From NCBI GenBank assembly GCA_001768235.1, contig MENK01000001.1:306057-370056 (forward strand): DNA of 64,000 nucleotides, written 5' to 3'. The DNA comes from Bacteroidetes bacterium GWB2_32_14. GTDB taxonomy: Bacteria; Bacteroidota; Bacteroidia; Bacteroidales; UBA12077. Under the pieces are notes generated by a model. It did no database searches. It was not told the origin of the DNA and saw nothing but the letters and a program-made list of their open reading frames with translations. Below, piece after piece: positions 4,702 through 44,280 of the stretch. Each line of letters starts with the position of its first letter. Within the stretch, counting starts at the first letter, position 1. The translations under genes were made by a program, and so were the position numbers.

Positions 4702-4799
4702 CGAGTTTTCTCATTTTTACAATAATCTTTCAACATATAAATAAAATATTATAATAATGGTGTTTTGTAACGAAAAAACTAATCCTAAAATTTAAACAT

Positions 4800-6146: not shown

Positions 6147-6158
6147 TTAATCATCCTG

Positions 6159-14800: not shown

Positions 14801-17800
14801 CAGTTAAACCTGAACGAGATTTAAGAAAAATGCCACTTTTTCAGGTGTTGTTTAGTTTTATGGATACTCCTACTAAACGCTTTGAATTGCCGAATATTGA
14901 GATTACCATTGAGAATTCTCATAATCAAACTGCAAAATTTGATATTAATATTGTGATTGTGCCTACACACAGCGATAATAACAAGGTAAACGATTCAATG
15001 CTTATTGAATGGGAATATAATACAGACTTATTTGAGAAATCAACTATGCATGAAATGATGAATAATTATTTTCAACTATTAAATATAATGGTTGAATCAT
15101 CACAGTTGACTATCTCAGATTTACCAGTGCATAGCGAATCAGCCCTTAAAAGGTTACTTTATAATAAGAATGAAAAATTTGAGCCAACAGATAATGGAAT
15201 TATTAGTTTATTTTCAAATCAGGTAAAAAATAATAAATATAAAATAGCTTTAGTTTCTAATGATTTACAATTCTCTTACGAATATTTAGATACTATAACT
15301 AGCCAGTATGCCAAAAAATTAATAAAATTTGGAATACAAAAAGGTAGTATAGTAGCATATTTACTTGATAAAGATTCAGATTGGATTATATCAACTCTTG
15401 CTATTTTAAAAGCAGGTGCATTGTATTTACCAATTGAGAATTCTTTGAGTAAGAAGCAAATTCAATATATTTTACGTGATAGTGAAGCACAATTAGTTAT
15501 TACAAAAAAACAGTATTCTGACTTAATAGATAATTTTAAAAATATTTTATTTAATGATCTTTTAAATCAAGAAGTAGTAAGTAACTTCGATGTTGAATCA
15601 ATTGAAAGTCGTGATTTAGCTTATATCATGTACACTTCAGGAACCACGGGAAATCCTAAAGGAGTTATGGTTGAGCATGGTTCAATTGTTAGGTTAATTA
15701 ATAACCCCAATTATGTTAGTTTAGACAATTACACACGTTTGCTTCAGACAGGAGCTCAAGCTTTTGATGCATCTGTATTTGAAATATGGGGAACGTTACT
15801 TAACGGAGGCACATTGTTTTTAGTGAATAATAATGAGATACTGGATTCTGAATTATTAAAAAAATCAATTGAAACTTTCGATATAAATATCATGTGGTTA
15901 ACTGCCCCGTTGTTTCATCAACACTGTGATGTTAATATTAACTTGTTTAAACCATTAAAACAGTTATTGGTCGGGGGAGACGTTCTTCAAACAAATAAAG
16001 TAAATCTATTCCTTAATAAAAACCCTGATGTAAAATTAATAAACGGGTATGGCCCAACAGAAAATACTGTATTTACAACTTGTTATAAAATAAACGAAGA
16101 ATCAAAACATTCAGTATCAATCGGATATCCGATAAATTTTACGGGAGTGTATGTAGTTGATAAGAATTTACAATTACTCCCGAGAGGTGCCGAAGGAGAA
16201 TTGATAACAACTGGAGTTGGATTATCAAGAGGATACCTGAATAGACCGGAACTTACAAACGAAAAATTTGTAAAAATACCCTTCAGGAATCATGAACTTG
16301 CTTATAAAACAGGAGATATTGTTAGATGGAGATCAAATGATACTTTGGAATTTATTGGTAGAGAAGATAACCAGGTAAAGATTAGGGGGAATCGTGTTGA
16401 GATTGGAAGTATAGAAGCACATATAAATAATCATTGCAATGTGATTTCTGTTGTAGTTAATGTTGTTGAACAGAATGGAAACAAGGCGTTAGTAGCCTAT
16501 ATCTTGACCAACAAAAAGCTATTTCCCGAAAATATAAAAGATTATCTTCGGGAATATCTGCCAAAATATATGATCCCGGATTATATTATTTTCGTTAAGC
16601 ATATGCCTCTTAATAAAAATGGCAAAATAGATAAAGATATACTTTATAAGGAGTATCAATTGCCAAAATATGAACATATTGAGGCAGATGATTTAGATAT
16701 ACAAGAAAAAGAAATAGCTAGAATATGGAGTGAGATATTATCTGTTGATATAAATGCAATACATAAAAATTCAAACTTTTTCGATCTGGGAGGACATTCA
16801 CTAAATGCAGTAATTTTAATTTCAAAACTTAGAGATAGTTTCGAATTTGATTTAAGTGTTGTGGATATATTTAAGTATCCTGATTTACAAAACTTTTCTA
16901 ATTGTATTACAAAGAAAACATCAGTTTCCCGGGCAAGAAAATTAGAAAAAGCTGCTGAACAGGAATACTATGAGTTATCTTCACCTCAGAAGCGATTATA
17001 CTGGCTCTTGCAATTGTATAATGATTCTGTGGTTTATAATATAAGTAAGGTTGTTGAAATTCAGAATGTAGTTGATGTTGAGCACCTTAATCATGCTTTT
17101 TCCACGTTAATCATGCAGCATGAAAGTTTAAGAACATCTTTTCATCAAGTTAATGGAGATGTAAAACAAAAGATTCATACTGAATTTAACTTCGAAATAG
17201 TGATAAAAAATATCAATGAATCACAGGTTTATGAAGAGATAGATAAGTCAATTAAACCGTTCGATTTATCAATGCATCCCCTTATTAGAGTAAATTTGTT
17301 AAGGGTGAGTGAAGATAAAAATATCTTGGTAATTGACTTACCACATATCATTGCAGATGGGGTATCAATTAATAAACTGTTAGAACAATTCACGACAATA
17401 TATAAATACGGAGAAATAGTACCTGCTAAATATCAGTATAGAGACTATATTGTTTGGTACGAAAAGTGGAAAGCTTCAAATAATTATATTGAACATAAGG
17501 AATTTTGGAAAAACATCTTTTCCTCTCCTGTACTAAAGTTAAATCTTCCAACCGATTTTTTGACAAAGAATTTAAGTAATTGTAAAGGCAAGAATATCTA
17601 CTTTACAATTAATCAAGATACGATGTTACTTATACAAAATAAACTGTTAGCTGGCGACCAAACCATGTTTATGTTTCTTTTGTTTAATTTCTTTGTACTG
17701 ATAAGCAAATACAGTGAAAGCGATGATCTTACAATAGGCTGCCCGGTTTCAGGACGAACCAAACATGAGTTCTTCGATATTATGGGACTTTTTGCAAACA

Positions 17801-18294
17801 TGCTTCCAATACGGTTTCGATTAGATAATCATATTGAGTTCGAATTATTGTTTAAGAATTTTTCGCAAAGTGTGGTAAAATATTATAATTATCAAGATTA
17901 TCAGTTCGATGATATTGTTAATAATTATGGATTTAATACGGAGAAATCGAACAACCCTTTATTTGATATTGTATTTGCATACATCAATAATAAGGGACAG
18001 GAGAACCTGCTTAAACAGATGAATATGCACCCAATTAAATTTGAAAAAGGGACTACACCATATCATCTTCTTATGAATGTGTTTGAGTTCGATAATAAAA
18101 TAGAACTGGTTCTTGAGTATGCTACTGATTTGTTTATGGAAGATACTATAGAGGAGATGTACTCAAATTATTTATTTATTATTAATCAGGTTATTAAAAA
18201 CCCTCAAATTAAACTTAAAGACATACAGCTAAAGTTTATTGGACAACAGGCAAATACTGTATTAGATAACGATTCACAAGATTATCTTCTTTAA
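8845..18294 (+). CDS. NRPS, C-T*-C-A-T-C-A-T-C (3149 aa)
   Basis: C1 HHILTDGWS (9271..). T* YFEYYNFSLK (Ser codon 10423..10425). C2 HHIISDGVS (11041..). A1 YTSGSTGQPKG/SYGPTE/YKTGD/GRIDEQVKIRGYRV. T FFEIGGDSI (13609..). C3 HHLIHDGWT (14197..). A2 YTSGTTGNPKG/NGYGPTE/YKTGD/GREDNQVKIRGNRVE. T FFDLGGHSL (16779..). Terminal C4 PHIIADGVS (17341..17361). The N-terminus (ILPLTYLQNSIF..DKYDALRTIFRWEKLKNPIQII) resembles the GrsB-type C domain that accepts a D-configured donor. Confidence 0.95.
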   Translation: MKTIDKKNVKTILPLTYLQNSIFVNSIGKKNKGLYIEQTKLKLSGVINEDIFKNTWQIIFDKYDALRTIFRWEKLKNPIQIILKKCIPEIIILDYCNYSDINEQIEKLRKNILINGLDIERQSLKIYLIKENSHSYTLLVINHHILTDGWSLGIILNEFNNIYESLTNNISFSISQSNDYCEQIKKIIDVNNLIHSDYWINYLSEISNTRAGSKTLRSNNKEIVSIDFEIDSRLEKEIEVYVKKHKLTNHTLFSSVWGTLLQTINDVDDVIFYNTVSIRDRSIGKADNSVGLFINTVPQRLKFKKDITFNDLLNYAKHDLINRSDKTNVDLGKLFVDAKINIPQFDINSLFVFENYPVETVLKKSQKDNIKRNEFIAGNSINALSDNQIKPYGIPGLEIVDYQYYSQPDYDLTLIITDFDFYKHKLFYDKKLFGEDAINQIVEKYLYFLKVAIENPYDCISEYFDINIRNLIKKEITGQDKILLDKKTKYTEDHITNTLVELWSEIFDIDIDKVSDEINYFEYYNFSLKTVHLVNRIRQLLNIDISITEVLECTTISKLAPLIRQKRVTENRALLTFSERKEHYCLSQEQLRLYYMHIVHENSTQFNAPKLFAINKKLSTDDIRYLNIIVNKIIHRHQGLRTIFKEINGEVRQVVLPASSCSTEINIEYLGYLTKLDLYHTISEDKSLKGNADKLNSLFNTYTKSFELSKFPLFRIWILQLHDESNFILIDIHHIISDGVSMYILIDEIKKIFNSLVIKPVNYYYTDYADWQRYKFLPNHVSNEINYWKNMFAKIYSPLNLPFDFEVSSSEILKGNKLYWSIEKEKYNRLLKILENNRLTLYAFFLSAYYLLFFKWLRRQDIVIGIVASKRNDKQLENLVGLLIDSYPIRIDLGVGANVSDLISIVKERLSEIYRNKGIPYHEILKIVAANDHKLKNSLINVMLNIHDYVDNEFYVNNIEISEIDFYHELPKTDISVDIMKYKETLKYGIEYNCQLFKEETILNLGNEFANIIDRLINIFEAEKYDLDLSFIFDKESQHILSKNKPSIEFNDTDFQFLEEFEMHVKQNPGKVALIFENKTDNYKTEKFTYQQVDDYSNRIANYLIDNGISNNIIIGLFIENGINRIISILGVLKSKAAFLPLDINIPKERVNYILKDSGISYIITDKELGEITGKIELLDYIKLTEYPGNRSLTLQRDANDLAYIIYTSGSTGQPKGVMVENKNMNNYIEAFLDEFMITSEDIFLQQASYSFDTYIEEVFPILSIGGELAVIPENDKRDISYVASFIQRNKITIVDCSPLMLGQLNNIPDINLLNTVRIYISGGDVLKSTQINRLFYKGEVYNSYGPTETTVCVTYYKCETIDIENQPIGKSIKNYSIILSTASNSNNVSRIGEIMVVGNGVTRGYLNNPELTHEKYISLDEIQKIRKYKTGDIGKLRDDGNIEFVGRIDEQVKIRGYRVDLIEIEQKLKSFNKINDAIVTYHEDHDSRRILSAYIVKKTGETIVVPEIRSFLQESLAEYMVPHLYYEVDEIPFTSGDKPDRQTVKKHGRAITNILESDLHELSATEKTLFEIWQTLLKHDNFNNRSNFFEIGGDSILITKAITRIRNEFSIEISYKDFYKNPTIQEIAEIINNSVTIIDEKKLEKSEYHDEAPLSFSQERIWFLQQLYENNKSYNVTRALTFKGDLNIYIFQKAIELIIEKHEIYRTVFRKNINTAYQKILPVVDCKVKMLSIDEIENKNEGINLEQWILKTGREIFDIENGPLIRFYLVQIKNNEYFFLVVEHHLIHDGWTQGLLLEEFVDIYKKLQDDSSYRPEASKLQYADFAIWQKQYFSREVLQKQMAFWKKKFDVEVPDLKLPFDNQSSSFFDGKGELLVIEVPNNLEERLKQFAISNNTTLFVVMLAAFKIELYRYSQISQICVGTGVANRIDEKLESVLGMVINTIPILTHIKDGNILVKEFIALVKESYLDSFQYANTPFEKIVEAVKPERDLRKMPLFQVLFSFMDTPTKRFELPNIEITIENSHNQTAKFDINIVIVPTHSDNNKVNDSMLIEWEYNTDLFEKSTMHEMMNNYFQLLNIMVESSQLTISDLPVHSESALKRLLYNKNEKFEPTDNGIISLFSNQVKNNKYKIALVSNDLQFSYEYLDTITSQYAKKLIKFGIQKGSIVAYLLDKDSDWIISTLAILKAGALYLPIENSLSKKQIQYILRDSEAQLVITKKQYSDLIDNFKNILFNDLLNQEVVSNFDVESIESRDLAYIMYTSGTTGNPKGVMVEHGSIVRLINNPNYVSLDNYTRLLQTGAQAFDASVFEIWGTLLNGGTLFLVNNNEILDSELLKKSIETFDINIMWLTAPLFHQHCDVNINLFKPLKQLLVGGDVLQTNKVNLFLNKNPDVKLINGYGPTENTVFTTCYKINEESKHSVSIGYPINFTGVYVVDKNLQLLPRGAEGELITTGVGLSRGYLNRPELTNEKFVKIPFRNHELAYKTGDIVRWRSNDTLEFIGREDNQVKIRGNRVEIGSIEAHINNHCNVISVVVNVVEQNGNKALVAYILTNKKLFPENIKDYLREYLPKYMIPDYIIFVKHMPLNKNGKIDKDILYKEYQLPKYEHIEADDLDIQEKEIARIWSEILSVDINAIHKNSNFFDLGGHSLNAVILISKLRDSFEFDLSVVDIFKYPDLQNFSNCITKKTSVSRARKLEKAAEQEYYELSSPQKRLYWLLQLYNDSVVYNISKVVEIQNVVDVEHLNHAFSTLIMQHESLRTSFHQVNGDVKQKIHTEFNFEIVIKNINESQVYEEIDKSIKPFDLSMHPLIRVNLLRVSEDKNILVIDLPHIIADGVSINKLLEQFTTIYKYGEIVPAKYQYRDYIVWYEKWKASNNYIEHKEFWKNIFSSPVLKLNLPTDFLTKNLSNCKGKNIYFTINQDTMLLIQNKLLAGDQTMFMFLLFNFFVLISKYSESDDLTIGCPVSGRTKHEFFDIMGLFANMLPIRFRLDNHIEFELLFKNFSQSVVKYYNYQDYQFDDIVNNYGFNTEKSNNPLFDIVFAYINNKGQENLLKQMNMHPIKFEKGTTPYHLLMNVFEFDNKIELVLEYATDLFMEDTIEEMYSNYLFIINQVIKNPQIKLKDIQLKFIGQQANTVLDNDSQDYLL
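10315..10545 (+). other. Degenerate carrier (T*) domain between two C domains, with no cognate A domain
   Basis: TLVELWSEIFDIDIDKVSDEINYFEYYNFSLKTVHLVNRIRQLL has the T-domain helix pattern. However, the GG(D/H)S core reads YNFS: the Ser is kept, GG is lost, and Phe replaces the usual Asp/His. Confidence 0.5.
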
Positions 18295-18399: not shown

Positions 18400-20100
18400 A
18401 TGATGTATAAAAATAATGATTTTAAGGTAAATGGCGTGATTTATTTGGTTCAGTTACCATTCTGGACTCCCCTAATTCCGCCACAAGGTATTGCAAAGAT
18501 AAAATCATATCTTCAATCAAATGGTTACCGCGTAAAAACTTCAGATTTGAATGTTGATTATGAAGTGAAATCAACCTATGAATCACTTTTAAAAATAATA
18601 CGAGATATAGTTCCAAAAGAGAAGTGGGGAAATTTTTATGATAACATACATGAAATAATAAAATATTCTCTTTTGTTGGTGTTAAATGAGCCTGATTATG
18701 AAAAAGCACATCCGATTTTAAAAAAGATTTTTAACTATTATTATTTAGTAGAACTAACAAAAGAAGATTCAGCAAGGATTATAAGTCTTTTAACAGAATA
18801 TTTCACGTATCTTGAGAATTCAATTGTAAGCCAGATACTTAACGATGAAGAGATATCTGTATTGGGTTTATCATTACATAGTGGTAATTTGGGATCGGGG
18901 CTCTATGTTTTAAAACGAATTAAACAAGAAAAACCATATATCAAAACGGTAATTGGAGGGAGTATTTTTATGGGTGAATTAAGAAATAATACACCAGACT
19001 TTAATCGTTTTTATAATAAAGCTGATAAATTAATTGACTATTATATTATTGGTTCAGGGGAAAGCTCATTCTTACATTTACTTAAAAATAGGTTCTCTTC
19101 AACAGAACGTGTAATTATTTCGGATCCCGCAAAAGAAGCTGTATTAGGCTTTGGTATTAAACCAGATTTAGATGATTTTGATATCAAGAAATATCCATAC
19201 ATTGCCAGCTACGTGTCTCAAAGCTGTCCCAACAAATGTAGTTTTTGTAACGAACGTACTTTTATGGGAGAGTATATCGAACGAGACATTAATAGAGTGG
19301 TTGACGAGATAGAGCATAATTCAAAATTGTATCAAAAAAATATGATTTTTATGCTTGATGTATTGATGAATAATTATATCACCCAGTTTTCAAAAGGACT
19401 AATTCAAAGAGGCCTTAATATTTTCTTTGACGGGTATATTAGAGTATCTGATCAATTAAATAATTCAGATCAAACTCAATTATGGCGTGAAGCCGGATTT
19501 TATAGAGCAAGGCTTGGAATTGAAAGCGGATCACAAAAAATACTTGATTTAATAAATAAAAATATTACAGTTGAACAAATATATAATTCATTAAAAGGGT
19601 TGGCAGGAAAAGGGATAAAAACAACAACGTACTTGGTTATTGGGCATCCTGGTGAAACAGATAATGATTTTAAAGAAACTCTGGATTTGCTTACAAGATC
19701 TCAAGAATATATTTGGCAGGCTGAACCCCATTTATTCCGGTATTTTTATACAGGCCAAAGCGATTCGGAAACGTGGGCGAAGTCCAGAATTCCACTTTAT
19801 ACCGATGAAGAGCTTGATATTCTTTTTTTTCAAACTTACAATCTGGATTTATTACCAACTCGAACAACTAGCTTAGAAAGAATTTGGAGAATGATGGAAC
19901 ATATTGAAATGAAGGGAATTGTTAATCCTTTTTCTGTGTACGATAAATTTAAAGCCGACGAGAGATGGAGTGGTTTGCATGAAAATTCAGTGCCATCAGT
20001 TGTTGAAATGGACGAAATAAGCAAGGTTACATATGGTTCAAACAAAATGAAAGATACGGTATCTACAAGGCTGGAATTTGAAGATAATTTCTTATTTTAA
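18400..20100 (+). CDS. Cobalamin-binding-domain radical SAM enzyme (class B type), copy 1
   Basis: N-terminal B12-binding-domain pattern: LPFWTPLIPPQGIAKIKSYLQSNGYRVKTSDLN, VLGLSLHSG..IKTVIGGSIF, GSGESSFLHLL. Radical SAM CX3CX2C motif as CPNKCSFC (19225..19248). ARLGIESGS motif. Ends in ..EFEDNFLF. Confidence 0.85.
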   Translation: MMYKNNDFKVNGVIYLVQLPFWTPLIPPQGIAKIKSYLQSNGYRVKTSDLNVDYEVKSTYESLLKIIRDIVPKEKWGNFYDNIHEIIKYSLLLVLNEPDYEKAHPILKKIFNYYYLVELTKEDSARIISLLTEYFTYLENSIVSQILNDEEISVLGLSLHSGNLGSGLYVLKRIKQEKPYIKTVIGGSIFMGELRNNTPDFNRFYNKADKLIDYYIIGSGESSFLHLLKNRFSSTERVIISDPAKEAVLGFGIKPDLDDFDIKKYPYIASYVSQSCPNKCSFCNERTFMGEYIERDINRVVDEIEHNSKLYQKNMIFMLDVLMNNYITQFSKGLIQRGLNIFFDGYIRVSDQLNNSDQTQLWREAGFYRARLGIESGSQKILDLINKNITVEQIYNSLKGLAGKGIKTTTYLVIGHPGETDNDFKETLDLLTRSQEYIWQAEPHLFRYFYTGQSDSETWAKSRIPLYTDEELDILFFQTYNLDLLPTRTTSLERIWRMMEHIEMKGIVNPFSVYDKFKADERWSGLHENSVPSVVEMDEISKVTYGSNKMKDTVSTRLEFEDNFLF

Positions 20101-20111
20101 AGCATGAAACT

Positions 20112-21296
20112 ATGAATAAATTTAGTGTCCCCTCTGATTTTGATATAAGTACAATTGACTATTACAAGCAACTCAATAATGAATACGAAAATTCAAAAGT
20201 TGTTGAAACATATGGAAATGTTACCAAAGAAAATATAATTGAATCTGGAAGGCCCAAGAGTGTGTTGCCTGATGTAGATTTTAAACAATTAGAAAATTAT
20301 ATTTCTTACTCGCTAAAAAGTAAAATCAATTTTAATTATACATTAAATGCAACTACACTGAATAATAAAGAATTTATTGAAGATGAAGTTGAAAACATTA
20401 TTAGATTTCTTAAACGATTAAACGATGCAGGAGTAACATCATTAACAATTGCGATGCCCTCAATGATTGAATTAGTAAATAAATCGTTCAATTGCTTTAA
20501 GATAAAAGCGTCAACATTATGCCAGATTACAAGTGCAAATAAGGCCTTAATGTTTAAAAGGCTTGGGGTTGATCGTATAGTGGTTGATGAATCGATAAAT
20601 AGAAAATTTAATAAATTAAAAAATATTCGTGAACAATTTGGACCCGATGTTGAACTTATTGCAAATGTAATATGCCATCAGGATTGTATATATCGGATGT
20701 TTCATTATAACCAGATGTCATCAATTTCTTTATCCGAAGGAAATGAAATAAGTGAATCTTATTACCCTCACCGGTGTTTGTTGCAAAGATATAATAACGT
20801 TAGTAATTTAATGAAACTTTCCTGGATAAGACCAGAAGATTTGAAGTATTATAATAATATTGGAATTACTAACTTTAAACTACAAGGACGACAAGCAGTA
20901 AAAACCAAAGGCCATCTAAAAACAATTAAACATTATTTTAATCAGAAATATGATGGAGATTTAATGGATTTATTAAATATGTACGATCCATTAAATAGCT
21001 TTAGAATATTTATAAAAAATAGCGATTTGGATGGTTTTATTAAACCTTTTGTCAGAGATGAGTATGATTTCTGTGAAAATAACTGTGAAAAATGTGGCTA
21101 TTGTCAAAAATATGCCGAAAGGATAATTGATATGAGCCATGCTAATGATATAATCCAAAAGACAAAAGAGTTTTATAATAAATTTGATCCATATTCAGAT
21201 CAGGTACAAATAGTTGGAGAAAGAGTAGGTGGAAATTATATTGAAAGTGAGATTGATGATAGAATCAATACAGAGCTTAATGATTTTAACTTGTAA
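20112..21296 (+). CDS. Peptidase-U32-like (PrtC/UbiU/TrhP superfamily) protein with extra Cys clusters, copy 1
   Basis: The start is 11 nt after the rSAM stop. U32-like pattern: alternating TIM-barrel strands (TSLTIAMPSMIELV, FKIKASTLCQI, VDRIVVDESI, VELIANVICHQDC) and FKLQGR (compare the LKIEGR of U32 proteins). Cys motifs: CHQDC..HRC and CENNCEKCGYC (21072..21104). Ends in ..ELNDFNL. Family call is by eye only. Confidence 0.5.
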   Translation: MNKFSVPSDFDISTIDYYKQLNNEYENSKVVETYGNVTKENIIESGRPKSVLPDVDFKQLENYISYSLKSKINFNYTLNATTLNNKEFIEDEVENIIRFLKRLNDAGVTSLTIAMPSMIELVNKSFNCFKIKASTLCQITSANKALMFKRLGVDRIVVDESINRKFNKLKNIREQFGPDVELIANVICHQDCIYRMFHYNQMSSISLSEGNEISESYYPHRCLLQRYNNVSNLMKLSWIRPEDLKYYNNIGITNFKLQGRQAVKTKGHLKTIKHYFNQKYDGDLMDLLNMYDPLNSFRIFIKNSDLDGFIKPFVRDEYDFCENNCEKCGYCQKYAERIIDMSHANDIIQKTKEFYNKFDPYSDQVQIVGERVGGNYIESEIDDRINTELNDFNL

Positions 21297-21393: not shown

Positions 21394-22195
21394 ATGCAAA
21401 AGGAAGGTGATTCTCTGACACTAGAAAAAAATGATTTTTTATTGAAAAAGTACTGGAGTAAAAAAATGGAAGGGGAGTATATAACCTCCATAGCACCTTC
21501 TGATTTCAAACAAGTTGATACTGATTATAAAGAGGGAATAAGAGAAATTTATTTCCCAAGTGAATTATCTGATCGGATTCTTCATATTGCAAATAATTCA
21601 GATACACGCTTGTATATAATATTACTTGCCGGTACAATGGGGTTTTATTCCAAATATACAGCAAGCAGCAATATATTGATAGGCTCTCCTATTTTTAACG
21701 AAAAAGAAAATAAGAATTTTATTAATGCATTGTTACTCTACAGATGTGAATTGAATACTAAATTATCATTTAAGAATATATTACCAGGAGTTAAAGATGA
21801 AATTTTTGAAACAGTTAAAAAGCAAAACTATCCAATTAAAAAGTTAGTAAGTAAATATGAAAATGAAAATTTTATCTCAACTAAAAAAATTGTTGATTCA
21901 ATTGTTTTGTTGGAGAACATTCATGAGTATAGTTTAATATCAGATTACAAACCTGGATTTGTTTTTTCATACAAACAAGTTGATGGCAAGCTAATTGGCA
22001 GGCTAACCTATGATTTGTCAAAATATGACCCTGAAATTATAAATGACATTATCGGGAATTTAATTTACTTCTTTAGTCAGCTTTATTTTAATACAGATAA
22101 GCCCTTAATAGATATTGATTGTATTAGGACGGAATCAAAAGAATTTCTTTTAAATAAATCTGAAGGAATATCAAGAAAACTTGAGAATACGAATA
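21394..22195 (+). other. N-terminal half condensation domain (C*): C-terminal lobe only, no catalytic His motif
   Basis: KKYWSKKMEGEY..APSDF (the YW..L..lP.D region that normally follows HHxxxDG), RLYIILLAGTMGFYSKYT, ILIGSPI, QNYPIKKLV, VLLENI, LTYDLSKYDPEII. The A domain begins immediately afterwards (WFEEIVNRFPNQIALIE). Confidence 0.6.
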
Positions 22196-25100
22196 TTATA
22201 TCGTGGTTTGAAGAAATAGTTAATAGATTTCCAAATCAAATAGCATTAATTGAAACTATTGAAAGTCAATACAAGCAAAAAGATGTTAATAATAACAACG
22301 AAATATTATCAAAGGTTAAAGAGCATTTCAGCCAGAAGAGAGAGAACATAAATGACTTAAATGTTGTAACATATGAAACTCTTAATAGAGAATCAAATAT
22401 TATTGCGCGATATTTAATAAAACAAGGTGTAATACAAAATCAAATTGTTGCCGTATTATGTGATTCAAATGCCCGATTGATTCCAATTATCTTGGGGATA
22501 TTGAAATCTCAATCTACATATTTGCCAATCGACTATAATCTCCCGGTTAATAGAATTAATCATATTATAAAAGATAGTTGTCCCCGGGTTATTGTTACAA
22601 CAAGTACTATATTTAATTCATTTAAAGGAAAATTATCTGAAAAAACTAAATATATATTATTAGATCAGGTTGATTTTGATGGAACCGATGAAAGTAATCC
22701 CGAATTAACAATTGAAGATAATTCTCCGGCTTATATAATTTATACATCAGGTTCTACAGGAGTTCCTAAAGGCACCATTGTTAATCATAAATCGCTTTGT
22801 AATTATATCGATTGGAGGATCAATTATTATGGTATTACCAGTTCTGATTTAACCTTGCAGTTACTTCAGCATTTTTTTGATGGTTATTATTCAAATTTGT
22901 TTCAAAGTATTTTGTCGGGAAGTACTTTATTGTTGGTAAATGGAGATAGGGTATTAGATTACGACTATATGAAACTATTATTTCAACAGTTTCAAATTAC
23001 AAACCTAAGTATAATACCAAGAATATTAGAAACAATAGTTGAACAGGTAAAATTTATACCTGAATCACTCAATCGTGTTATTGTAGCAGGTGAAACTGCA
23101 TCTGCTCGTTTAATTCAGATTTTAAAAGAATACAACCCTGATATCAGGATTTATAATGAATATGGGCCAACAGAAACCTGTATTGGGATTTTTAGTAAAA
23201 GAATTGATAATGAAGCGAATTTAAAAATTATAGGAAGTCCGATTCAAAATAATTCCGCCTTGGTTATTGATCCGGAATCTCTGGACTTAAAACCAGTTGG
23301 AATAGCCGGAGAGTTATGCATATCAGGATTTAATTTGGCGAGAGGTTATTTGAACAGAGTAGAATATACAGACCAAAAATTTGGTTATCGAGATCATAAG
23401 TTCTTTTATAAAACTGGCGACACGGTGAGATATTTGAGCAATGGAGATATGGAGTTTATAGGTAGAAGAGATGATCAGATGAAAATTCGCGGATTTCGTG
23501 TTGAGATTGGAGAGATTGAATCTTGTTTAAAGCGAATTGAAGAAATTGAAGATGGAATTATAATTCCTGTATCGAATAAAAATGACGATATAGTTTTATG
23601 CGCTTATTATAAAAGTAAGAAAGAAATAGATAAAGAACTCATAAAGGAAAGTCTTGAACAATACTTGCCCGGGTATATGATACCCAATCATTATGTTAGG
23701 CTTGAAGCATTTCCCGTACTCCCTAATGGGAAAATGGATAAAAACGCTCTTCCAAAGCCTGGCTTAGAATCAAAGCAAGAGAAACCTGCCAATAAATTGG
23801 AAATTGATCTTGCTCAAATATGGAGTAAGGTTTTAAAAACTGAAGTTGATAATATAAATATTGATTCAAACTTTTTTGAATTGGGAGGACATTCTTTAAA
23901 TGCAACACTCCTGATATCATCTATATACGATAAATTTGCTGTAAAAATTCCGATGAAGGATTTTTTCAGGAACCCAACTATTAATGGGTTAAAGAAATTT
24001 TTTGAAAATGAAGATGAAATATTGAAAGATATATCAAAACCAGAAAATAAAGAACAGAAAATGAGTCTATCTCCTGCTCAGCAAAGACTCTATATTATTA
24101 ATCAAACTAACCCGGGTTCAACAGTTTATAATATGCCAAGTATATTTCGGTTAGAAGGAGATGTTGATTTAAATAAGTTGCAACAGGTTATTAATAAGCT
24201 AGTTGAAAGACACCAGAGCCTAAGGACACGTTTTTATGTTGAAAACGACAAGATATTTCAAGAGATTTACACTGAATGTAAAGTATTTGTAGAGCATAAA
24301 GTTGTCGATTCTAATAATTTAGAGAATGAAATAGCAGGTTTTATAAAACCATTTAATTTAAACCAGGCTCCATTATTACGTGCCGCAATTTTTAAAGTGG
24401 TTAATGAATTTATATTGGTTATTGATATTCATCACATAATTGCGGATATTGTTTCAATATCGATTTTAATCAAAGAGTTTTTTGAATTATATAATGATAG
24501 AACTGTAGAGGCAATTAATTATGAATTTGTTGACTATATTCATTCAATTTCGGAAAAGGAACACTTAGCAAGAATTAGTGAGCAGGAAAAATTCTGGTTA
24601 GAACTTTATAAAGTATTACCAAACAAATTAACTCTGCCAATTGATTATTCCCGTCCTAAGAATATTGATTATGATGGTGATTTTATTACAATAAAACTCG
24701 ACGATTTTATTTCTAAAGAAATTAAAGAGTTTATTAAAAATAACGGGATAACCCCGTTTATATTTTTTATTAGCCTGTATTACATTTTTCTATATAAAAT
24801 TACCGGTTCAACGGATGTCGTGATCGGATTCCCAAGTATAAACAGGAAAAAAGTAGATTTTCGAAACATTGTAGGAAATTTTCTGAATACAATTCCAATT
24901 CGGTTTAATCATGATTTAAAGAAAACATTTAATGAAATAATACTAGAAATAAGAGATGTTATACTTGACTGTTTCGATAATCAAGATTACCAGTTAGAAA
25001 GTTTGATTAACAAATTAGATTTCAAAAAAGAAGAAGGAAGAGTTACATTAATTGATACGTTATTTAATTTTATACAGGAAAATGACCTAAAGCTTGAATC

Positions 25101-32917: not shown

Positions 32918-33002
32918 TATGTGTTTTCATGGTATTGTGAAAACCTAAAATTGTAAAGTATTATTTCAAATCATTTTATTGCACTCAACATCTCTATTCG
33001 TT

Positions 33003-33959: not shown

Positions 33960-34086
33960 AATATGGGTTCCAAATTTATTTGTAGTTTAAAACAAGTGTT
34001 AAAATTTTGTTTGTCTTTGATTTTTAATCCTTTATAATACATGTAAATATAAATAATAGCAATAACCTGGTACAATAAATAAAATT

Positions 34087-34527: not shown

Positions 34528-34532
34528 ACAGT

Positions 34533-35753: not shown

Positions 35754-35769
35754 TTAAAAGCTCAAAATA

Positions 35770-36584: not shown

Positions 36585-38051
36585 ATGTTACACATACTCA
36601 ATAAAATTGATAGTTTAACGCTAACTCAGAAAGAAAAACTCTTATCTGAACTAACTTGTAAAAAGATAAATTTCAAGGGCAAGATGATTCTTGAGTACCC
36701 GCTTTATTGCACAGAGAAAAAAGAGTATTACCCTGTTTCATCAGCTCAATTTCGTGTATTTATTGCAAATCAGGTATATACATTCAATTCGGCATTTAAT
36801 AATCAACTGGCTTTTGTTTTATCAGGAGAATTCGATATAGAGAAAATACGTGAGATATTTAATAAGTTAATAACCCGGCATGAAGTTTTAAGAACCTCTT
36901 TCTTCGAAATAAAGGGACAAATATATCAGAAAGTTCATGAACACGCAGAGGTAAACTTCCAGGTAATACAGGATAACAATAAACCTTTAGAGACAATAAT
37001 TAAGGAATTTGTTAAACCTTTCGATCTTGCATTAGCACCATTGTTTCGAATAGGCGTGTGTAATATTAAAAACGACGAGGTGTTTTTAATTCTTGATATT
37101 CACCATATTATTTCTGATGCTGAATCACTTATTTTATTTACAAATGAATTTATTGAATTATATAAGAGTTATGATCTCGGTAAACATTTATATCAATACC
37201 GTGATTATGCTCAATGGGAAAACGTGATAAAGAAAAAAGTTCTTTTCATATTGCAAAAAAAATTCTGGAATGAAATTTATACACCACTTATTGATGTTAA
37301 ACTCCCATTTTTAAATAAACCAGAGCAAAAGGATTATTCGGGGGATGTATTTGAATTTTCTATTGAATTGGAAGAAAAAATAGAAATTGAAAAAATGGTT
37401 AAGTCATTAGAGCTAACACTTTTTATGTTTTTATTAGGAGCATTTGCTTTAACAATTTCTAAACTAACATACAAAAATGATATTATAATCGGTAGCCCGG
37501 TTGCTGGCAGGAGAAAAAATGAGTTTGAAAAAATAATGGGAATATTTGTAAATATGCTATCCTTCCGGTTTAAAATAAATAATCAAAATACAATTCAAGA
37601 ATTTTATAACATTATTAAAAATGATATATTGAATTGTTTCGATAATCAGGAATATCCATACGATGAGTTAGTGAAAGATTTGAACTTGAAAAAAGCTCTG
37701 TTTGATATTGTTTTTGTATTTCAAAATGCAGGAGGAAAATTAAAAAACAAAAATGTTGAAATAAATGATGATTTAGCTATTTCTCCATTCAAATTTTTTA
37801 ATAAAACATCAAAATTTGCACTTTTGCTTGAAACCTGGGAAGAAGAAAAACGATTGGGATTAAGATTTGAATATTCTACTTATTTATTCGATAAAAGCGA
37901 AATACAAAAAATGTCTGAGAATTATAAACAGGTTATTCGTACAATTATTTCCAATAAATCAATTTTTTTGTCCGAAATAGAAACTTTTAAAAAGGCAAAT
38001 ACATTTGACAAATTAGCTAACCAATCAGAAATACAAGATTTTGATTTTTAA
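36585..38051 (+). CDS. Stand-alone NRPS condensation domain protein (488 aa)
   Basis: YYPVSSAQFRVF, HEVLRTSF, DIHHIISDAES (37101..37121, Gly replaced by Ala), YRDYAQW, IIGSPVAGRRKNEFEKIMGIFVNML, NQEYPYDELV, LFDIVFVFQN. No A or T domain. Ends in ..EIQDFDF. Confidence 0.9.
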   Translation: MLHILNKIDSLTLTQKEKLLSELTCKKINFKGKMILEYPLYCTEKKEYYPVSSAQFRVFIANQVYTFNSAFNNQLAFVLSGEFDIEKIREIFNKLITRHEVLRTSFFEIKGQIYQKVHEHAEVNFQVIQDNNKPLETIIKEFVKPFDLALAPLFRIGVCNIKNDEVFLILDIHHIISDAESLILFTNEFIELYKSYDLGKHLYQYRDYAQWENVIKKKVLFILQKKFWNEIYTPLIDVKLPFLNKPEQKDYSGDVFEFSIELEEKIEIEKMVKSLELTLFMFLLGAFALTISKLTYKNDIIIGSPVAGRRKNEFEKIMGIFVNMLSFRFKINNQNTIQEFYNIIKNDILNCFDNQEYPYDELVKDLNLKKALFDIVFVFQNAGGKLKNKNVEINDDLAISPFKFFNKTSKFALLLETWEEEKRLGLRFEYSTYLFDKSEIQKMSENYKQVIRTIISNKSIFLSEIETFKKANTFDKLANQSEIQDFDF

Positions 38052-38061
38052 TACTGAACAA

Positions 38062-39756
38062 ATGAAATCCAGCGAAATAAATAATATTCTTTTCATGTTA
38101 CCTCCATTTTGGGATCCGTTAATACCTCCGCAGGGGATAGCACACATTAAAAACTATTTAAAAAAATATAACTATAATGTTAAAACCTATGATTTTAATA
38201 TTTATAAGAATTTTAGAGATATTTATACCCGATACTTCAATACATTAAAAAAATATGTACCACTCGAAAAGAGAGGTAACTTTTTCAATATTGGTCACGA
38301 TGTTCTTCGAAATCATATGTTAATCAACTTTATAAACAATCAAGATGATGAATATTATATTTTTTTAAAAGATATTATTTACAAAACCTTTTATGTACAA
38401 CTCGGAATAGAAATATTAAAAGAAGTAGATGATATTATTAATTCCTTTTATTCGATTTTTGAAAAAGAATTGAATAAGATTTTCTATCAAAATAAATTTC
38501 AAATGGTTGGAGTATCAGTTATGAGAGATAACATCGCTCCATCTCTGTTTGCCTTGAGATATATTAAAAAAATTGATCCTGCGGTAATCACTGTAATGGG
38601 AGGAAGTATTTTTTCAGATCAATTATTAATAGGAACACCCAATTTAGATTATTTTTTAAAAAATACTCCCTATTTGGATAAGGTGTTTGTTGGTGAAGGT
38701 CAAATTTTATTGCATAAGTTTTTATCAGGAGAATTGGATAACGAAAAAAAACTATTTACTCTTGATGATATCAATAGAGAAGCATTAGCCTATTCTGATT
38801 TAAATTTCCCGGATATGGATGATTTTGATGTAAAGCATAATTACATGTATCTGGCAATGAATGCATCAAATAGTTGCCCTTATAAATGTAGCTTTTGTAA
38901 TGTAGCTAATTTTTTTGGTGATTATCGCGAAAAAGATCCTGGTATGGCTGCGGCTCAAATGATGTCTTTATATCAAATTTATGGAATACGTATTTTTTTT
39001 ATGAATGACTCTTTGCTTAATAATGTGGCTGATAACCTTTCGACTGAATTGCAAAAAAATAATACTCCTTTATATTGGGACGGATACATGCGTGTTGCAG
39101 ATAATGTTTGCGATCAGAGAAATACAATTCATTGGAGAAAAGGCGGTTTGTATAGAGCAAGACTGGGAGTAGAAAGTGGTTCCAATAGAGTTTTGAAATT
39201 GATGGGAAAAAAAATCTCTATTGAGCAAACCAAAGAATCTCTGAAAAGTTTGGCAAATGCTGGCATTAAAACTACAACTTATTGGGTTATTGGTCATCCT
39301 GGCGAAACTGAAGAAGATTTTCAGTTAACCCTGAAATTGCTTGAAGAAAGTAAAACCTATATTTACGAAGCAGAATGTAATCCATTTATTTTTAGTTATT
39401 CGGGACAATCAGATTCTGAAAATTGGCATAACGATCGCAAAATTTTATATACTCATGTTCCCCAGGAAAGAATTATTATTCAAGACTGGACCAATAATAC
39501 CTACCCTTTGCGTGAAGAAACTTATGAAAGAGTGAATAGGTTTGTTCAACGTTGCAATGACCTGGAAATTCCAAACCCATATTCTTATTTCGATATTTAT
39601 AATGCAGATAACCGGTGGAAACTTCTACATCGTAATTCAGTCCCGTCTTTAGTTGATATTTATGATGGAAACATTGACCTCTTGGAATCCAGAAAAGTTG
39701 AAATTATTAATAAAATTTCTAAAATAAATATTGAAACAAACGATTTTGATTTTTAA
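38062..39756 (+). CDS. Cobalamin-binding-domain radical SAM enzyme, copy 2 (paralog of 18400..20100)
   Basis: LPPFWDPLIPPQGIAHIKNYLKKYNYNVKTYDFN, VGVSVMRDN..VITVMGGSIF, CPYKCSFC (38875..38898), ARLGVESGS. It aligns with copy 1 along its whole length. The tracked TTG at 38041 overlaps the upstream stop, so I prefer the in-frame ATG at 38062. Ends in ..ETNDFDF. Confidence 0.85.
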   Translation: MKSSEINNILFMLPPFWDPLIPPQGIAHIKNYLKKYNYNVKTYDFNIYKNFRDIYTRYFNTLKKYVPLEKRGNFFNIGHDVLRNHMLINFINNQDDEYYIFLKDIIYKTFYVQLGIEILKEVDDIINSFYSIFEKELNKIFYQNKFQMVGVSVMRDNIAPSLFALRYIKKIDPAVITVMGGSIFSDQLLIGTPNLDYFLKNTPYLDKVFVGEGQILLHKFLSGELDNEKKLFTLDDINREALAYSDLNFPDMDDFDVKHNYMYLAMNASNSCPYKCSFCNVANFFGDYREKDPGMAAAQMMSLYQIYGIRIFFMNDSLLNNVADNLSTELQKNNTPLYWDGYMRVADNVCDQRNTIHWRKGGLYRARLGVESGSNRVLKLMGKKISIEQTKESLKSLANAGIKTTTYWVIGHPGETEEDFQLTLKLLEESKTYIYEAECNPFIFSYSGQSDSENWHNDRKILYTHVPQERIIIQDWTNNTYPLREETYERVNRFVQRCNDLEIPNPYSYFDIYNADNRWKLLHRNSVPSLVDIYDGNIDLLESRKVEIINKISKINIETNDFDF

Positions 39757-39791
39757 ACTACTGCTATAAACAAGTTGTGGGCTGATTGCCC

Positions 39792-39896
39792 ATGAAACCA
39801 GAAGAACCCATTGTACATGATTTCTTGATATTTATTAACTTTAAACTTTATAACGGGGAGAAAACCCTGCTGTTTCATACTGCGAAACCGTTATAA
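39792..39896 (+). CDS. Candidate 34-aa small ORF in the 313-bp gap (very uncertain)
   Basis: My own translation: MKPEEPIVHDFLIFINFKLYNGEKTLLFHTAKPL. It is the only intergenic sORF longer than 20 aa that I found. FINFKLYNGE resembles NINIQLYNGD of the docking domain at 62316. Its stop codon lies inside the right arm of the hairpin at 39849..39895. It may be a chance ORF in AT-rich DNA or a gene remnant. Confidence 0.15.
   Translation: MKPEEPIVHDFLIFINFKLYNGEKTLLFHTAKPL
39849..39895 (+). terminator. Structured element: 8-bp outer stem enclosing short inner hairpins, followed by a T-rich tract
   Basis: TATAACGG (39849..39856) pairs with CCGTTATA (39888..39895). Inside are GGG-AGAAAA-CCC and GTTTC-ATACTGC-GAAAC. 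The downstream sequence is ATTTTATTAATATTTTTT. A weaker hairpin, TGGGC-TGATT-GCCCA, lies at 39778..39792. Confidence 0.3.
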
Positions 39897-40069
39897 TTTT
39901 ATTAATATTTTTTGAGTAGTTAATAATGATTACTCGATTCAAAACCCGACTTTCAGTTTTTTTAATCAAAAGTAATTTTAATTAAAGTAATCTTTCAACC
40001 AGTATGGAGTCTTACATTATTTTGGCAAACATCAATTTGAACAATCGTTAACAATTAATTTTTTGCGTT

Positions 40070-43513: not shown

Positions 43514-44280
43514 ATGGACTATAATAATGAACAGGATTATTGGCTGGAAAAATTATCAGATACTACTGAAAGATGCAGTTTTCCTTACAATTATCTAACA
43601 AGTAATATTAAAAAAGAACTTTTGTCATTTAACATTGATTTGCCTGCAGATGTTACAAACAAGTTATTGCAAATAAGTGGCGATTCTGATTTTCGATTAT
43701 TTATACTTTTAAAAGCAGGATTATTTTTACTTCTTAACAAATACACGGGGAAGAAAAATATTATTATTGGCAGTCCTATAATGAAGCAGGAAACCGATAC
43801 AAATTTTATTAACACATATTTACCTGTAAAACTATATTTAGATGAAAACCATAGTTTTATAGAGTATTTAAATAATGTAAAAAACGAACTTATTCTTGCT
43901 ATTGATAATCAGAATTTTCCAATAGACACTATTCCCGAGTATCTCGGATTATCTAATCAAATAAAAAACCAAACATTTTTTGATATCGCTGTTTTACTGG
44001 AAGAACTTCAAGATAAAAAATATATAGAACACTTAAAGCTAGACATGATTTTCCGTTTCTCGAAAAAGAATGAAGGAATAAATTTAACTGTTGACTATAA
44101 TGGGAATTTATATAAAAAACAAACAATAGAAAGAATTATATCACATTTATCAATATTACTGGGTAATGCACTTGAAAACAAGAATAGTTTGATTGGTGCA
44201 ATTGAGTGGTATAAACCAGAAGAAAAAGAAAAGGTACTTTATCATTTTAATCAAACCGATAAGAATTATAACCTTGATAA
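43514..44280 (+). other. N-terminal half condensation domain (C*)
   Basis: EQDYWLEKLSD..FPYNY, RLFILLKAGLFLLLNKYTG, IIIGSPIMKQETDTNFIN, QNFPIDTI, FFDIAVLLEE, LTVDYNGNLYKKQTIERI. There is no HHxxxDG before the A domain starts (VLDIFKQACNINPDQ). Confidence 0.6.

What the first reader, a model, noticed from the sequence alone, without database searches (positions are those of the whole stretch)
18400..21296. B12-type radical SAM plus U32-peptidase-like pair embedded between NRPS genes (cassette copy 1 of 2)
A class-B-type rSAM (CPNKCSFC) is followed 11 nt later by a protein with U32-family hallmarks (TIM-barrel strand pattern, FKLQGR). The same pair recurs at 38062..41239, with clear full-length paralogy for both members, so the two proteins probably work together. 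U32-family members UbiU/UbiV, TrhP and RlhA are known as O2-independent, prephenate-dependent hydroxylases acting on sp2 carbons. B12-rSAMs typically methylate or rearrange unactivated carbons; CysS, for example, acts on an aminobenzoate-derived unit. In 64 kb I recognise no P450, flavin monooxygenase or Fe/2OG enzyme. The cluster may therefore rely on an entirely anaerobic tailoring chemistry. I do not know of a described NRPS/PKS tailoring system built on this pair, and I cannot search to confirm that.
Basis: partly seen in the sequence, partly recalled or inferred. Interest (0 to 1): 0.8.

Follow-up and report, generated by a model that had tools for sequence, protein, structure and literature searches.

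The report
Iron-sulfur tailoring enzymes docked on NRPS
Two copies of a radical-SAM enzyme plus a divergent U32-type iron-sulfur protein sit inside a peptide-antibiotic assembly line of an uncultured groundwater bacterium. The U32-type protein belongs to an apparently undescribed family found in such gene clusters of many anaerobes, and it probably adds oxygen to an aromatic amino acid without using O2.

Summary
Gene 18400-20100 is a radical SAM enzyme (CxxxCxxC, class-B-like N-terminus) and 20112-21296 is a U32-like protein. The pair recurs at 38041-39756 / 40070-41239 with full-length paralogy (36% and 44% identity, E about 1e-119).

- **The U32-like protein is NRPS-associated.** It belongs to a distinct family: 644 cluster representatives at E<=1e-30. 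In 58 of 68 genomic loci it sits inside NRPS clusters, mostly of anaerobes.
- **It tracks one kind of module.** It lies almost always directly upstream of a module whose adenylation-domain code is a conserved Tyr-like DG[SAT]S[VI]AE, or else His/Phe/Tyr-like.
- **A shared docking tail.** The U32 proteins, the rSAMs and the upstream NRPS subunits share a C-terminal [DE]-F-x-[FL] tail. Every run of tail-bearing proteins ends at a module that starts with a truncated condensation domain (C').
- **The pair is not obligate.** Each enzyme family occurs in NRPS clusters without the other.
- **The U32 Cys motif is non-canonical.** One family member is fused to chorismate-utilising and chorismate-mutase-type domains.

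Best reading: independently recruited O2-free tailoring enzymes. The U32 is probably a hydroxylase of a carrier-bound aromatic residue and the rSAM probably a methylase. I found no published description. Chemistry is inferred, not shown.

The parts
16948..18294 (+). Terminal condensation (C) domain of the upstream NRPS subunit (aa 2702-3138 of ORF 8845-18294). The protein ends in the tail ...DSQDYLL.
   Evidence: Domain map; tail.
18400..20100 (+). rSAM1, a class-B-like (B12-type) radical SAM enzyme of 566 aa. It has the CxxxCxxC motif at C276/C280/C283 and the C-terminal tail ...EDNFLF.
20112..21296 (+). U32_1, a divergent U32-like TIM-barrel protein of 394 aa. Invariant residues are C188-x3-C192, H198, C222 and C321-x3-C325-x2-C328-x2-C331. 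The C-terminal tail is ...LNDFNL.
21412..22146 (+). C', the C-terminal lobe only of a condensation domain (aa 7-251 of NRPS 21394-27240). It has no HHxxxDG motif. Proposed docking platform for the tails.
   Evidence: (Condensation profile positions 195-456 only).
22192..24012 (+). Adenylation and carrier domains of the module served by cassette 1. The A-domain code is DGSSIAEIG (Tyr-like class).
36585..38051 (+). Free-standing condensation domain of 488 aa (HHIISDA motif) with the tail ...IQDFDF.
38041..39756 (+). rSAM2, the paralogue of rSAM1 (36% identity). The tail is ...TNDFDF. The start is either TTG 38041 or ATG 38062.
40070..41239 (+). U32_2, the paralogue of U32_1 (44% identity). The tail is ...AEDFKF.
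41252..43393 (+). rSAM3, a different B12-binding rSAM of 713 aa (TIGR04190-like) with no tail. In relatives the same domain is built into the NRPS module between C' and A.
43514..45979 (+). C' (aa 1-239), A (code DAFYAALVW) and T domains of the first module of NRPS 43514-53698. This module is served by cassette 2.

Best explanation
The window carries a hybrid NRPS/PKS cluster from an uncultured groundwater bacterium, probably Bacteroidota. Two acceptor modules are each served in trans by stand-alone iron-sulfur enzymes.

**What is shown**
- Each served module begins with a catalytically dead half condensation domain (C').
- The proteins encoded directly upstream all end in the same short acidic-aromatic tail [DE]-[FY]-x-[FL]. 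These proteins are the preceding NRPS subunit or a free C domain, a class-B radical SAM enzyme, and a U32-like protein.

**What is inferred**
- The tail docks these proteins on C', so that they can act on the aminoacyl group held on that module's carrier domain before the upstream C domain condenses it.
- The substrate is an aromatic, Tyr-like amino acid. This follows from the conserved A-domain code and its His/Phe/Tyr alternatives.
- The U32-like protein carries one or two Fe-S clusters on 7 invariant Cys. By analogy with UbiU/UbiV, it oxidises the aromatic side chain without O2. The most likely reaction is hydroxylation of the ring (phenol to catechol) or of the benzylic carbon, with a prephenate-type oxygen donor.
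- The rSAM1/2 enzyme is an independent, cobalamin-dependent radical enzyme, most likely a C-methyltransferase acting on the same tethered residue.

The rSAM and the U32 protein are therefore co-recruited neighbours, not an obligate two-component enzyme.
For: **Family and context**
- The U32_1 homologues are about 50% identical across Bacillota, Aminicenantes, Acidobacteria, Bacteroidales, KSB1 and Paenibacillus.
- 58 of 68 loci with a close homologue are NRPS clusters.

**Substrate link**
- The first A domain downstream of U32 has the code DG[SAT]S[VI]AE in 27 of 40 loci, against 16 of 119 other A domains (Fisher p = 2e-10).
- Most of the remainder read DSELTAEVC, DAWTIAAVC, DASTIAAVC or DAF[YF]xAL[VI]W.
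- The order of taxa in a neighbour-joining tree of the U32 proteins follows these codes.

**Docking**
- The tail is present on 88 of 273 NRPS, U32 or rSAM proteins, against 2 of 346 other proteins (p = 8e-33).
- Runs of tail-bearing proteins end at a C'-first NRPS in 40 direct cases and at a full C domain once.
- C' matches only Condensation profile positions ~190-456 and lacks HHxxxDG.

**U32 nature**
- Pfam score above the cut-off, best fold match 5d88, and a [FV]K[LI][QE]GR motif that resembles one in UbiU.
- 7 Cys plus H198 are invariant in all subgroups.

**Link to prephenate chemistry**
- Family member P0245 is a natural fusion of a chorismate-binding domain, a CM_2 (chorismate-mutase fold) domain and a U32-like domain. 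It is 31% identical to U32_1 (E 3e-48) and is preceded by a glutamine amidotransferase gene.
- DAHP synthase genes occur in 7 related loci.

**Other points**
- Sugar-biosynthesis genes and glycosyltransferases that would need a hydroxyl acceptor are common neighbours.
- For the rSAM: the best NCBIfam models are B12 methylases such as PhpK and rSAM_ocin_1, and BchE. Among the best PDB relatives by sequence are TokK and OxsB.
- No O2-dependent oxygenase was found in the window.
Against: - No chemistry was tested.
- The canonical U32 four-Cys motif is not present. Only the N-terminal third of the Pfam profile aligns. TrhP scores 16 bits against a cut-off of 534. Profile comparisons with UbiU and UbiV are not significant. 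The analogy to the known hydroxylases is therefore remote.
- The code-to-substrate assignments (Tyr, His, Phe) and the GrsA ruler come from my memory and could not be checked in the literature library.
- The exact substrate of DGSSIAEIG and DAFYAALVW is unknown.
- No chorismate mutase gene lies in the window or in the 80 loci.
- The fusion protein is a single case on a 6.5 kb contig, and its CM_2 domain could be an isochorismate-pyruvate-lyase or aminodeoxychorismate-mutase type.
- Binding of the tail to C' rests on gene order only.
- Some family members (Victivallales, Pontiella, solitary Bacillota copies) are not in NRPS clusters.
Confidence: 0.5

Rival explanations
1. The U32-like protein and the rSAMs do not hydroxylate or methylate. 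They form oxidative cross-links (aryl-aryl, aryl-ether or C-C) or desaturate the aromatic residue. This would be an anaerobic counterpart of the P450 Oxy enzymes that the C-like X domain recruits to glycopeptide assembly lines.
For: - Trans enzymes are recruited next to a C-like, non-catalytic domain at modules for aromatic residues.
- Several different class-B rSAM families converge on the same module, and one is even built into it.
- From my own knowledge rather than a tool result: class-B and other rSAMs are known to make aromatic cross-links in peptide biosynthesis.
Against: - Many loci have only one aromatic-type module next to the U32 protein.
- The known chemistry linked to U32 proteins is hydroxylation only.
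- The fusion to chorismate and CM_2 domains fits a cosubstrate role better.
Confidence: 0.15
2. The U32-like protein is an auxiliary Fe-S redox partner or scaffold for the neighbouring radical SAM enzymes. It would deliver electrons or assemble the complex and have no substrate chemistry of its own. On this reading the rSAM-U32 pair is a true two-component enzyme.
For: - Seven invariant Cys include a ferredoxin-like CX3CX2CX2C block.
- 34 of 58 NRPS-linked U32 loci hold at least one class-B rSAM.
- Victivallales loci outside NRPS clusters also place an rSAM directly upstream of the U32 gene.
Against: - 24 of 58 NRPS-linked loci have no detectable class-B rSAM within 10 kb.
- The rSAM1/2 family occurs in 10 NRPS loci without a U32 gene.
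- The accompanying rSAMs belong to several unrelated subfamilies.
- The U32 tree follows the A-domain code, as expected for a substrate-recognising enzyme.
Confidence: 0.12
3. The U32-like protein is what its family name says: a peptidase. It would trim a pro-form of the product, edit mis-primed carriers or protect the producer.
For: - The Pfam family is named Peptidase_U32, and sources annotate homologues as 'collagenase-like PrtC family protease'.
- From my own knowledge: prodrug-activating peptidases are common in NRPS clusters.
Against: - The protein carries a docking tail shared with rSAMs and C domains, and it sits at one specific module rather than at the cluster edge with the transporters.
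- The invariant Cys/His set is typical of metal clusters.
- Recent reviews describe the characterised U32 members as Fe-S oxidases.
Confidence: 0.05

Closest known systems
UbiU/UbiV, TrhP and RlhA (U32 'oxidases': O2-independent, prephenate-dependent hydroxylation of ubiquinone precursors and of U34/C2501 in RNA)
   Same: - Same Pfam family and TIM-barrel fold.
- A [FV]K[LI][QE]GR motif resembling that of UbiU.
- Conserved Cys consistent with Fe-S binding.
- The inferred substrates are electron-rich aromatic rings. The first UbiU/V-dependent hydroxylation acts on octaprenylphenol.
- Tandem paralogue pairs in 11 loci recall the UbiU-UbiV heterodimer.
- One family member is fused to chorismate-utilising and CM_2 domains.
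   Different: - The Cys pattern is C-x3-C...C plus a C-terminal CX3CX2CX2C block, instead of CX6CX15CX3/4C.
- Only the first third of the Pfam profile aligns.
- Similarity to UbiU, UbiV and TrhP is not significant.
- The family profile reaches only 2389 representatives among 1.84 billion, which suggests it does not reach mainstream U32 proteins.
- The context is NRPS rather than quinone or RNA metabolism.
- It carries a C-terminal docking tail.
Trans-acting hydroxylases of carrier-bound aromatic amino acids (NovH/NovI, NikP1/NikQ, CmlP/CmlA), and recruitment of P450 Oxy enzymes by the C-like X domain of glycopeptide NRPSs (named from my own knowledge)
   Same: - A stand-alone oxidative enzyme is encoded next to an A-T unit for Tyr-, His- or Phe-type residues.
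- A non-catalytic condensation-like domain lies at the point of recruitment.
   Different: - The enzymes here are Fe-S and radical SAM proteins, not haem, di-iron or Fe/2OG proteins, so they need no O2.
- Recruitment appears to use a short C-terminal peptide shared by several enzyme classes and by the upstream NRPS subunit. This has not been shown physically.
Cobalamin-dependent radical SAM methylases of peptide pathways (PoyB/PoyC-type rSAM_ocin_1, PhpK, TokK, CysS, TsrM)
   Same: - An N-terminal B12-type domain plus a CxxxCxxC core.
- These families give the best model and structure matches.
- CysS and TsrM act on aromatic building blocks of peptide natural products.
   Different: - All model scores are far below the family cut-offs, for example PhpK 90-100 bits against 600.
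- The Pfam B12-binding score is below its cut-off.
- rSAM1/2 form their own NRPS-embedded family with a docking tail.
- Their reaction is unknown, and BchE-like oxidative chemistry is not excluded.

Membership tests
Radical SAM superfamily (rSAM1, rSAM2) | CxxxCxxC cluster motif and a Radical_SAM core above the Pfam cut-off | tested here: met
   C276/C280/C283 are invariant in the family alignment. PF04055 scores 73.9 and 62.9 bits against a cut-off of 29.5.
Class B (cobalamin-dependent) radical SAM enzymes | N-terminal cobalamin-binding domain | tested here: inconclusive
   PF02310 E-values are 8e-6 and 3e-6, but the scores (26.1 and 27.6 bits) are below the cut-off of 32.1. The best NCBIfam hits are all B12-type rSAM families, none near its cut-off. 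PDB relatives by sequence include TokK and OxsB. Cobalamin binding itself cannot be tested here.
Peptidase U32 family (PF01136) fold | Pfam score above the gathering cut-off and a U32 TIM-barrel fold | tested here: met
   Scores are 42.6 and 26.6 bits against a cut-off of 22.4, but only profile positions 2-87 and 3-114 of 233 are matched. The Foldseek best hit is 5d88, the U32 peptidase Mk0906 (E 4e-9, TM 0.70 on the target).
U32 oxidases (UbiU/UbiV, TrhP, RlhA) | Conserved four-cysteine motif CX6CX15CX3/4C that binds a [4Fe-4S] cluster | tested here: not met
   The motif is as described in PMC6747719. This family instead has invariant C188-x3-C192, C222 and C321-x3-C325-x2-C328-x2-C331.
U32 oxidases (UbiU/UbiV, TrhP, RlhA) | Significant sequence similarity to a characterised member | tested here: not met
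   The NCBIfam TrhP model scores 16.1 bits against a cut-off of 534. hhalign against UbiU and UbiV gives probability below 1%. hmmsearch of the family profile against UbiU and UbiV is not significant.
U32 oxidases (UbiU/UbiV, TrhP, RlhA) | Prephenate-dependent, O2-independent hydroxylation | not testable with these tools
   The evidence is only indirect: the fusion P0245 (chorismate-binding + CM_2 + U32-like) and DAHP synthase genes in 7 loci.
Trans-acting NRPS tailoring enzymes that work on carrier-bound amino acids | Conserved genetic association with one specific A-T module | tested here: met
   27 of 40 downstream A domains share the code DG[SAT]S[VI]AE, against 16 of 119 elsewhere (p = 2e-10). 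The U32 tree follows the code.
Trans-acting NRPS tailoring enzymes that work on carrier-bound amino acids | Physical recruitment to the assembly line and action on the thioester-bound substrate | not testable with these tools
   Inferred only, from the shared tail and from the C'-first gene that follows each run of tail-bearing proteins.

The most novel reading that the evidence does not exclude
Anaerobic bacteria from many phyla use a common plug-in system. A short [DE]-F-x-[FL] C-terminal peptide docks stand-alone O2-independent Fe-S enzymes onto a truncated condensation domain at the start of an NRPS module. These enzymes are a new U32-type oxidase family and several cobalamin radical SAM families. 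The U32 member performs prephenate-dependent hydroxylation of a carrier-bound tyrosine-like residue. It would be the first U32 oxidase acting in natural-product biosynthesis, and the anaerobic equivalent of P450 or non-haem-iron hydroxylases of NRPS lines.
Probability: 0.3. Interest if true: 0.85.

Novelty: new variant of a known kind. Interest (0 to 1): 0.72.

Why it matters
How strict anaerobes install hydroxyl groups and other oxidative decorations on nonribosomal peptides is largely unknown. Essentially all characterised NRPS hydroxylases need O2.

The U32 family is suspected to be a general class of O2-independent hydroxylases, but only ubiquinone and RNA substrates are known, and no in vitro assay exists. 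An NRPS-docked U32 enzyme would offer three things:
- a soluble, defined substrate (an aminoacyl carrier protein);
- a simple mass read-out for testing the prephenate mechanism;
- a genome-mining handle (U32-like gene, tail, C'-first module) for several dozen unexplored clusters in gut, sediment and groundwater anaerobes.

The docking tail and the C' platform, and the radical SAM domain built into NRPS modules in relatives, could also be useful parts for engineering assembly lines.

Tried and rejected
1. **Genome scan with rSAM1 alone**.
2. **Genome scan with the rSAM alignment**. The patterns were too generic. Reciprocal co-occurrence therefore rests on those 10 loci.
3. **Direct comparison with E. 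coli UbiU and UbiV** by hhalign and hmmsearch. Not significant. My hand alignment of C188, C192 and C222 with UbiU C169, C176 and C232 is only a suggestion.
4. **U32_1 and U32_2 as a UbiU/UbiV-like hetero-pair.** Rejected. Tandem copies in other loci form two subtypes, but both window copies are closer to subtype 2.
5. **A small gene in the 314-nt gap between rSAM2 and U32_2.** No convincing ORF.
6. **Chorismate mutase or chorismate-binding genes in the window and the 80 loci.** None found; only DAHP synthase, in 7 loci.
7. **Literature check of the A-domain codes.** No hits, so the substrate names stay memory-based.
8. **Searches for a published U32-NRPS link**. Nothing relevant. One search was badly designed and uninformative.
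9. **Model coordinates.** They are not available to scripts, so I could not test whether the seven Cys form one or two clusters.
10. **Structure prediction of a C'-tail complex.** Not possible, because chimeric inputs are not accepted.
Full report
**1. What is in the sequence**

The window has 29.5% G+C, and all large ORFs are on the + strand. It is identical to a contig of a groundwater metagenome-assembled genome, GCA_001768285.1. Its closest relative in the genome collection is a Marinifilaceae MAG.

The finding's two genes are real. rSAM1 (18400-20100, 566 aa) scores 73.9 bits on Pfam Radical_SAM and has the CxxxCxxC motif. Its B12-binding match is below the Pfam cut-off (26.1 against 32.1 bits). 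U32_1 (20112-21296, 394 aa) starts 11 nt later. It scores 42.6 bits on Peptidase_U32 (cut-off 22.4), but only over the first third of the profile.

The second cassette is rSAM2 (38041-39756) and U32_2 (40070-41239). Paralogy is clear and full-length: 36% and 44% identity, E about 1e-119. A third, unrelated B12-type rSAM (rSAM3, 41252-43393, TIGR04190-like) follows U32_2.

An AlphaFold model of U32_1 (pLDDT 86.6) has the only solved U32 structure, 5d88, as its best PDB match. No O2-dependent oxygenase domain was found in the window.

**2. Architecture of the assembly line**

I mapped domains with the window's own domains as seeds. The order is:
- NRPS1: C-T-C-A-T-C-A-T-C
- rSAM1, then U32_1
- NRPS2: C'-A-T-C-A-T
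- a PKS
- four genes that look like sugar or aminosugar metabolism (GFO/IDH/MocA, ROK, DegT, HAD)
- a free C domain, rSAM2, U32_2 and rSAM3
- NRPS4: C'-A-T-C-A-T-C-A-T-C
- NRPS5: C'-A-T
- a second PKS

C' is only the C-terminal lobe of a condensation domain. It matches Pfam profile positions ~190-456 and has no HHxxxDG motif.

Every protein encoded just before a C'-first subunit ends in the same tail, apart from rSAM3 (which has none) and NRPS4 (a near-match):
- NRPS1: ...QDYLL
- rSAM1: ...DNFLF
- U32_1: ...NDFNL
- free C domain: ...QDFDF
- rSAM2: ...NDFDF
- U32_2: ...EDFKF
- NRPS4: a near-match...DSFNFSSN

**3. The U32-like family elsewhere**

A protein search gave 419 homologues, typically about 50% identical, from many mostly anaerobic lineages. 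A profile search of 1.84 billion cluster representatives gave 644 at E<=1e-30 and only 2389 at E<=1e-3. This suggests a distinct family whose profile does not reach mainstream U32 proteins.

I fetched 80 genomic loci and labelled their genes with the window's proteins. Of the 68 loci with a close homologue (at least 300 bits):
- 58 are NRPS clusters;
- 34 of those 58 also hold at least one class-B-like rSAM;
- 7 hold the rSAM1/2 type;
- 11 hold the rSAM3 type;
- 11 have two tandem U32-like genes.

The accompanying rSAMs belong to several different subfamilies: true PhpK family, BchE-like and TIGR04190-like. In relatives the rSAM3-type domain is part of the NRPS polypeptide, inserted between C' and A.

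In the other direction, ten further NRPS loci carry the rSAM1/2 family, with the same tail, but no U32 gene within 10 kb. They include SAR324, Aminicenantes, Omnitrophota and Chitinophaga. The two enzyme families are therefore separable. The adjacency seen in the window is conserved only in a subset: L001, L043, L011, L040 and L058.

**4. Two regularities that point to mechanism**

*The docking tail.* The tail [DEN][FWY]x[FLIM] occurs on 88 of 273 NRPS, U32 or rSAM proteins in these loci and on 2 of 346 other proteins (p = 8e-33). Runs of tail-bearing proteins lead to a gene that starts with C' in 40 direct cases and with a full C domain once.

*The A-domain code.* The first A domain after the U32 gene has the specificity code DG[SAT]S[VI]AE in 27 of 40 loci, against 16 of 119 other A domains (p = 2e-10). 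Most of the remaining loci read DSELTAEVC, DAWTIAAVC, DASTIAAVC or DAF[YF]xAL[VI]W.

From memory, DGTITAEVAK is a Tyr code, and the others are His, Phe and Tyr codes. I could not verify this in the library. The order of taxa in a neighbour-joining tree of the U32 proteins follows these codes, as expected if the enzyme recognises what that module loads. The window's modules read DGSSIAEIG (after cassette 1) and DAFYAALVW (after cassette 2).

**5. Relation to known U32 enzymes**

The characterised U32 'oxidases' are linked to O2-independent hydroxylation of ubiquinone precursors and RNA bases. They carry a CX6CX15CX3/4C motif that binds a [4Fe-4S] cluster. [quoted passage not shown]

The family here keeps the fold and a [FV]K[LI][QE]GR motif resembling the one in UbiU. 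Its invariant residues are different: C188-x3-C192, H198, C222 and a C-terminal CX3CX2CX2C block. Direct comparisons with UbiU, UbiV and TrhP are not significant. I therefore do not file it as a member of the characterised oxidase groups.

One natural fusion supports a related chemistry. P0245 (924 aa) joins a chorismate-binding domain, a chorismate-mutase-fold (CM_2) domain and a U32-like domain of this family (31% identity to U32_1, E 3e-48). It is preceded by a glutamine amidotransferase gene.

Other context points the same way, weakly:
- DAHP synthase genes lie in 7 related loci.
- Glycosyltransferase and sugar genes are frequent neighbours.

**6. Conclusion and limits**

The most economical reading is this. 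The rSAMs and the U32-like protein are stand-alone, O2-independent tailoring enzymes. A shared C-terminal peptide recruits them to a C'-A-T module that loads an aromatic, Tyr-like amino acid. The U32-like protein most likely hydroxylates that residue, on the ring or at the benzylic carbon. The rSAM1/2 enzyme most likely methylates it.

*Shown:*
- gene content and paralogy;
- family distribution and NRPS association;
- the link between the tail and C';
- the link between the U32 gene and the A-domain code;
- separability of the two enzyme families.

*Inferred:*
- physical docking;
- the identity of the substrate;
- every chemical step.

I found no paper describing U32 proteins in NRPS or PKS pathways, and the two U32 papers read describe only ubiquinone and RNA substrates. 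The library is incomplete, so prior description cannot be excluded.

Noticed in passing
window 41252-43393; L005:11227-15200; L040:11188-15792: rSAM3 is a 713-aa B12-binding rSAM (TIGR04190-like) with an unassigned 200-aa N-terminus. It stands alone in the window. In at least 10 related loci the same domain is part of the NRPS polypeptide, and in the two fusions scanned with Pfam it lies between C' and A (C'-rSAM-A-T). I do not know of a described radical SAM domain built into an NRPS module.
   Followed up: partly
C-termini of window ORFs ending at 18294, 20100, 21296, 38051, 39756 and 41239; N-termini at 21394, 43514 and 53837: NRPS subunits, a free C domain, rSAMs and U32 proteins share a C-terminal tail [DE]-[FY]-x-[FL]. 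It is always encoded upstream of an NRPS that starts with a half condensation domain (C'). The rule holds across about 60 loci from several phyla (p = 8e-33). It looks like a general docking code.
   Followed up: partly
P0245 / L168:3179-5953: This 924-aa protein fuses a PabB/TrpE-like chorismate-binding domain, a CM_2 domain and a U32-like domain, and is preceded by a glutamine amidotransferase gene. It may make (amino)prephenate for the U32 domain, or salicylate- or PAPA-type chemistry. The contig is only 6.5 kb.
   Followed up: partly
L015, L021, L022, L027, L029, L031, L034, L042, L045, L054 (about 7.5-11.2 kb in each): Tandem pairs of U32-like genes fall into two subtypes (43% identity between subtypes, 53-57% within). 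This recalls the UbiU-UbiV heterodimer. A free C domain often lies directly upstream. Both window copies are closer to subtype 2.
   Followed up: partly
window 2902-8552: Three genes sit between two NRPS genes: a NACHT/AAA-type ATPase (599 aa), a protein with a C-terminal thioredoxin/AhpC-like domain (448 aa) and a MacB/FtsX-type permease (797 aa). They may serve export or self-protection. An FtsX homologue also lies next to the cluster in L032 and L058.
   Followed up: no
window 31832-36580: Genes for a GFO/IDH/MocA oxidoreductase, a ROK kinase, a DegT-type aminotransferase and a HAD phosphatase lie directly upstream of cassette 2. They are syntenic in the Marinifilaceae MAG (L043). No glycosyltransferase is seen in the window. 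Related loci often carry sugar genes and glycosyltransferases next to the U32 gene.
   Followed up: partly
window 25414-26889 (second A domain of NRPS 21394-27240): The A-domain code is AVIHIGFAI, which lacks the Asp235 that binds the alpha-amino group. The same code (AVIHVGFAI) occurs in the Marinifilaceae relative. This suggests a non-amino-acid substrate just before the PKS module.
   Followed up: no
L014, L016, L080 (Victivallales); L037, L050 (Pontiella): These close U32-like homologues lie outside NRPS clusters and have no docking tail. In the Victivallales loci a B12-type rSAM of 516-536 aa lies directly upstream. The function is probably different.
   Followed up: no
L020, L035, L047, L057, L060, L063, L078: A DAHP synthase gene lies inside the U32-containing clusters. 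In the L057 type it is accompanied by a carbamoyltransferase, a phenol-type O-methyltransferase and a MatE exporter. This fits a shikimate-derived, hydroxylated aromatic unit.
   Followed up: partly
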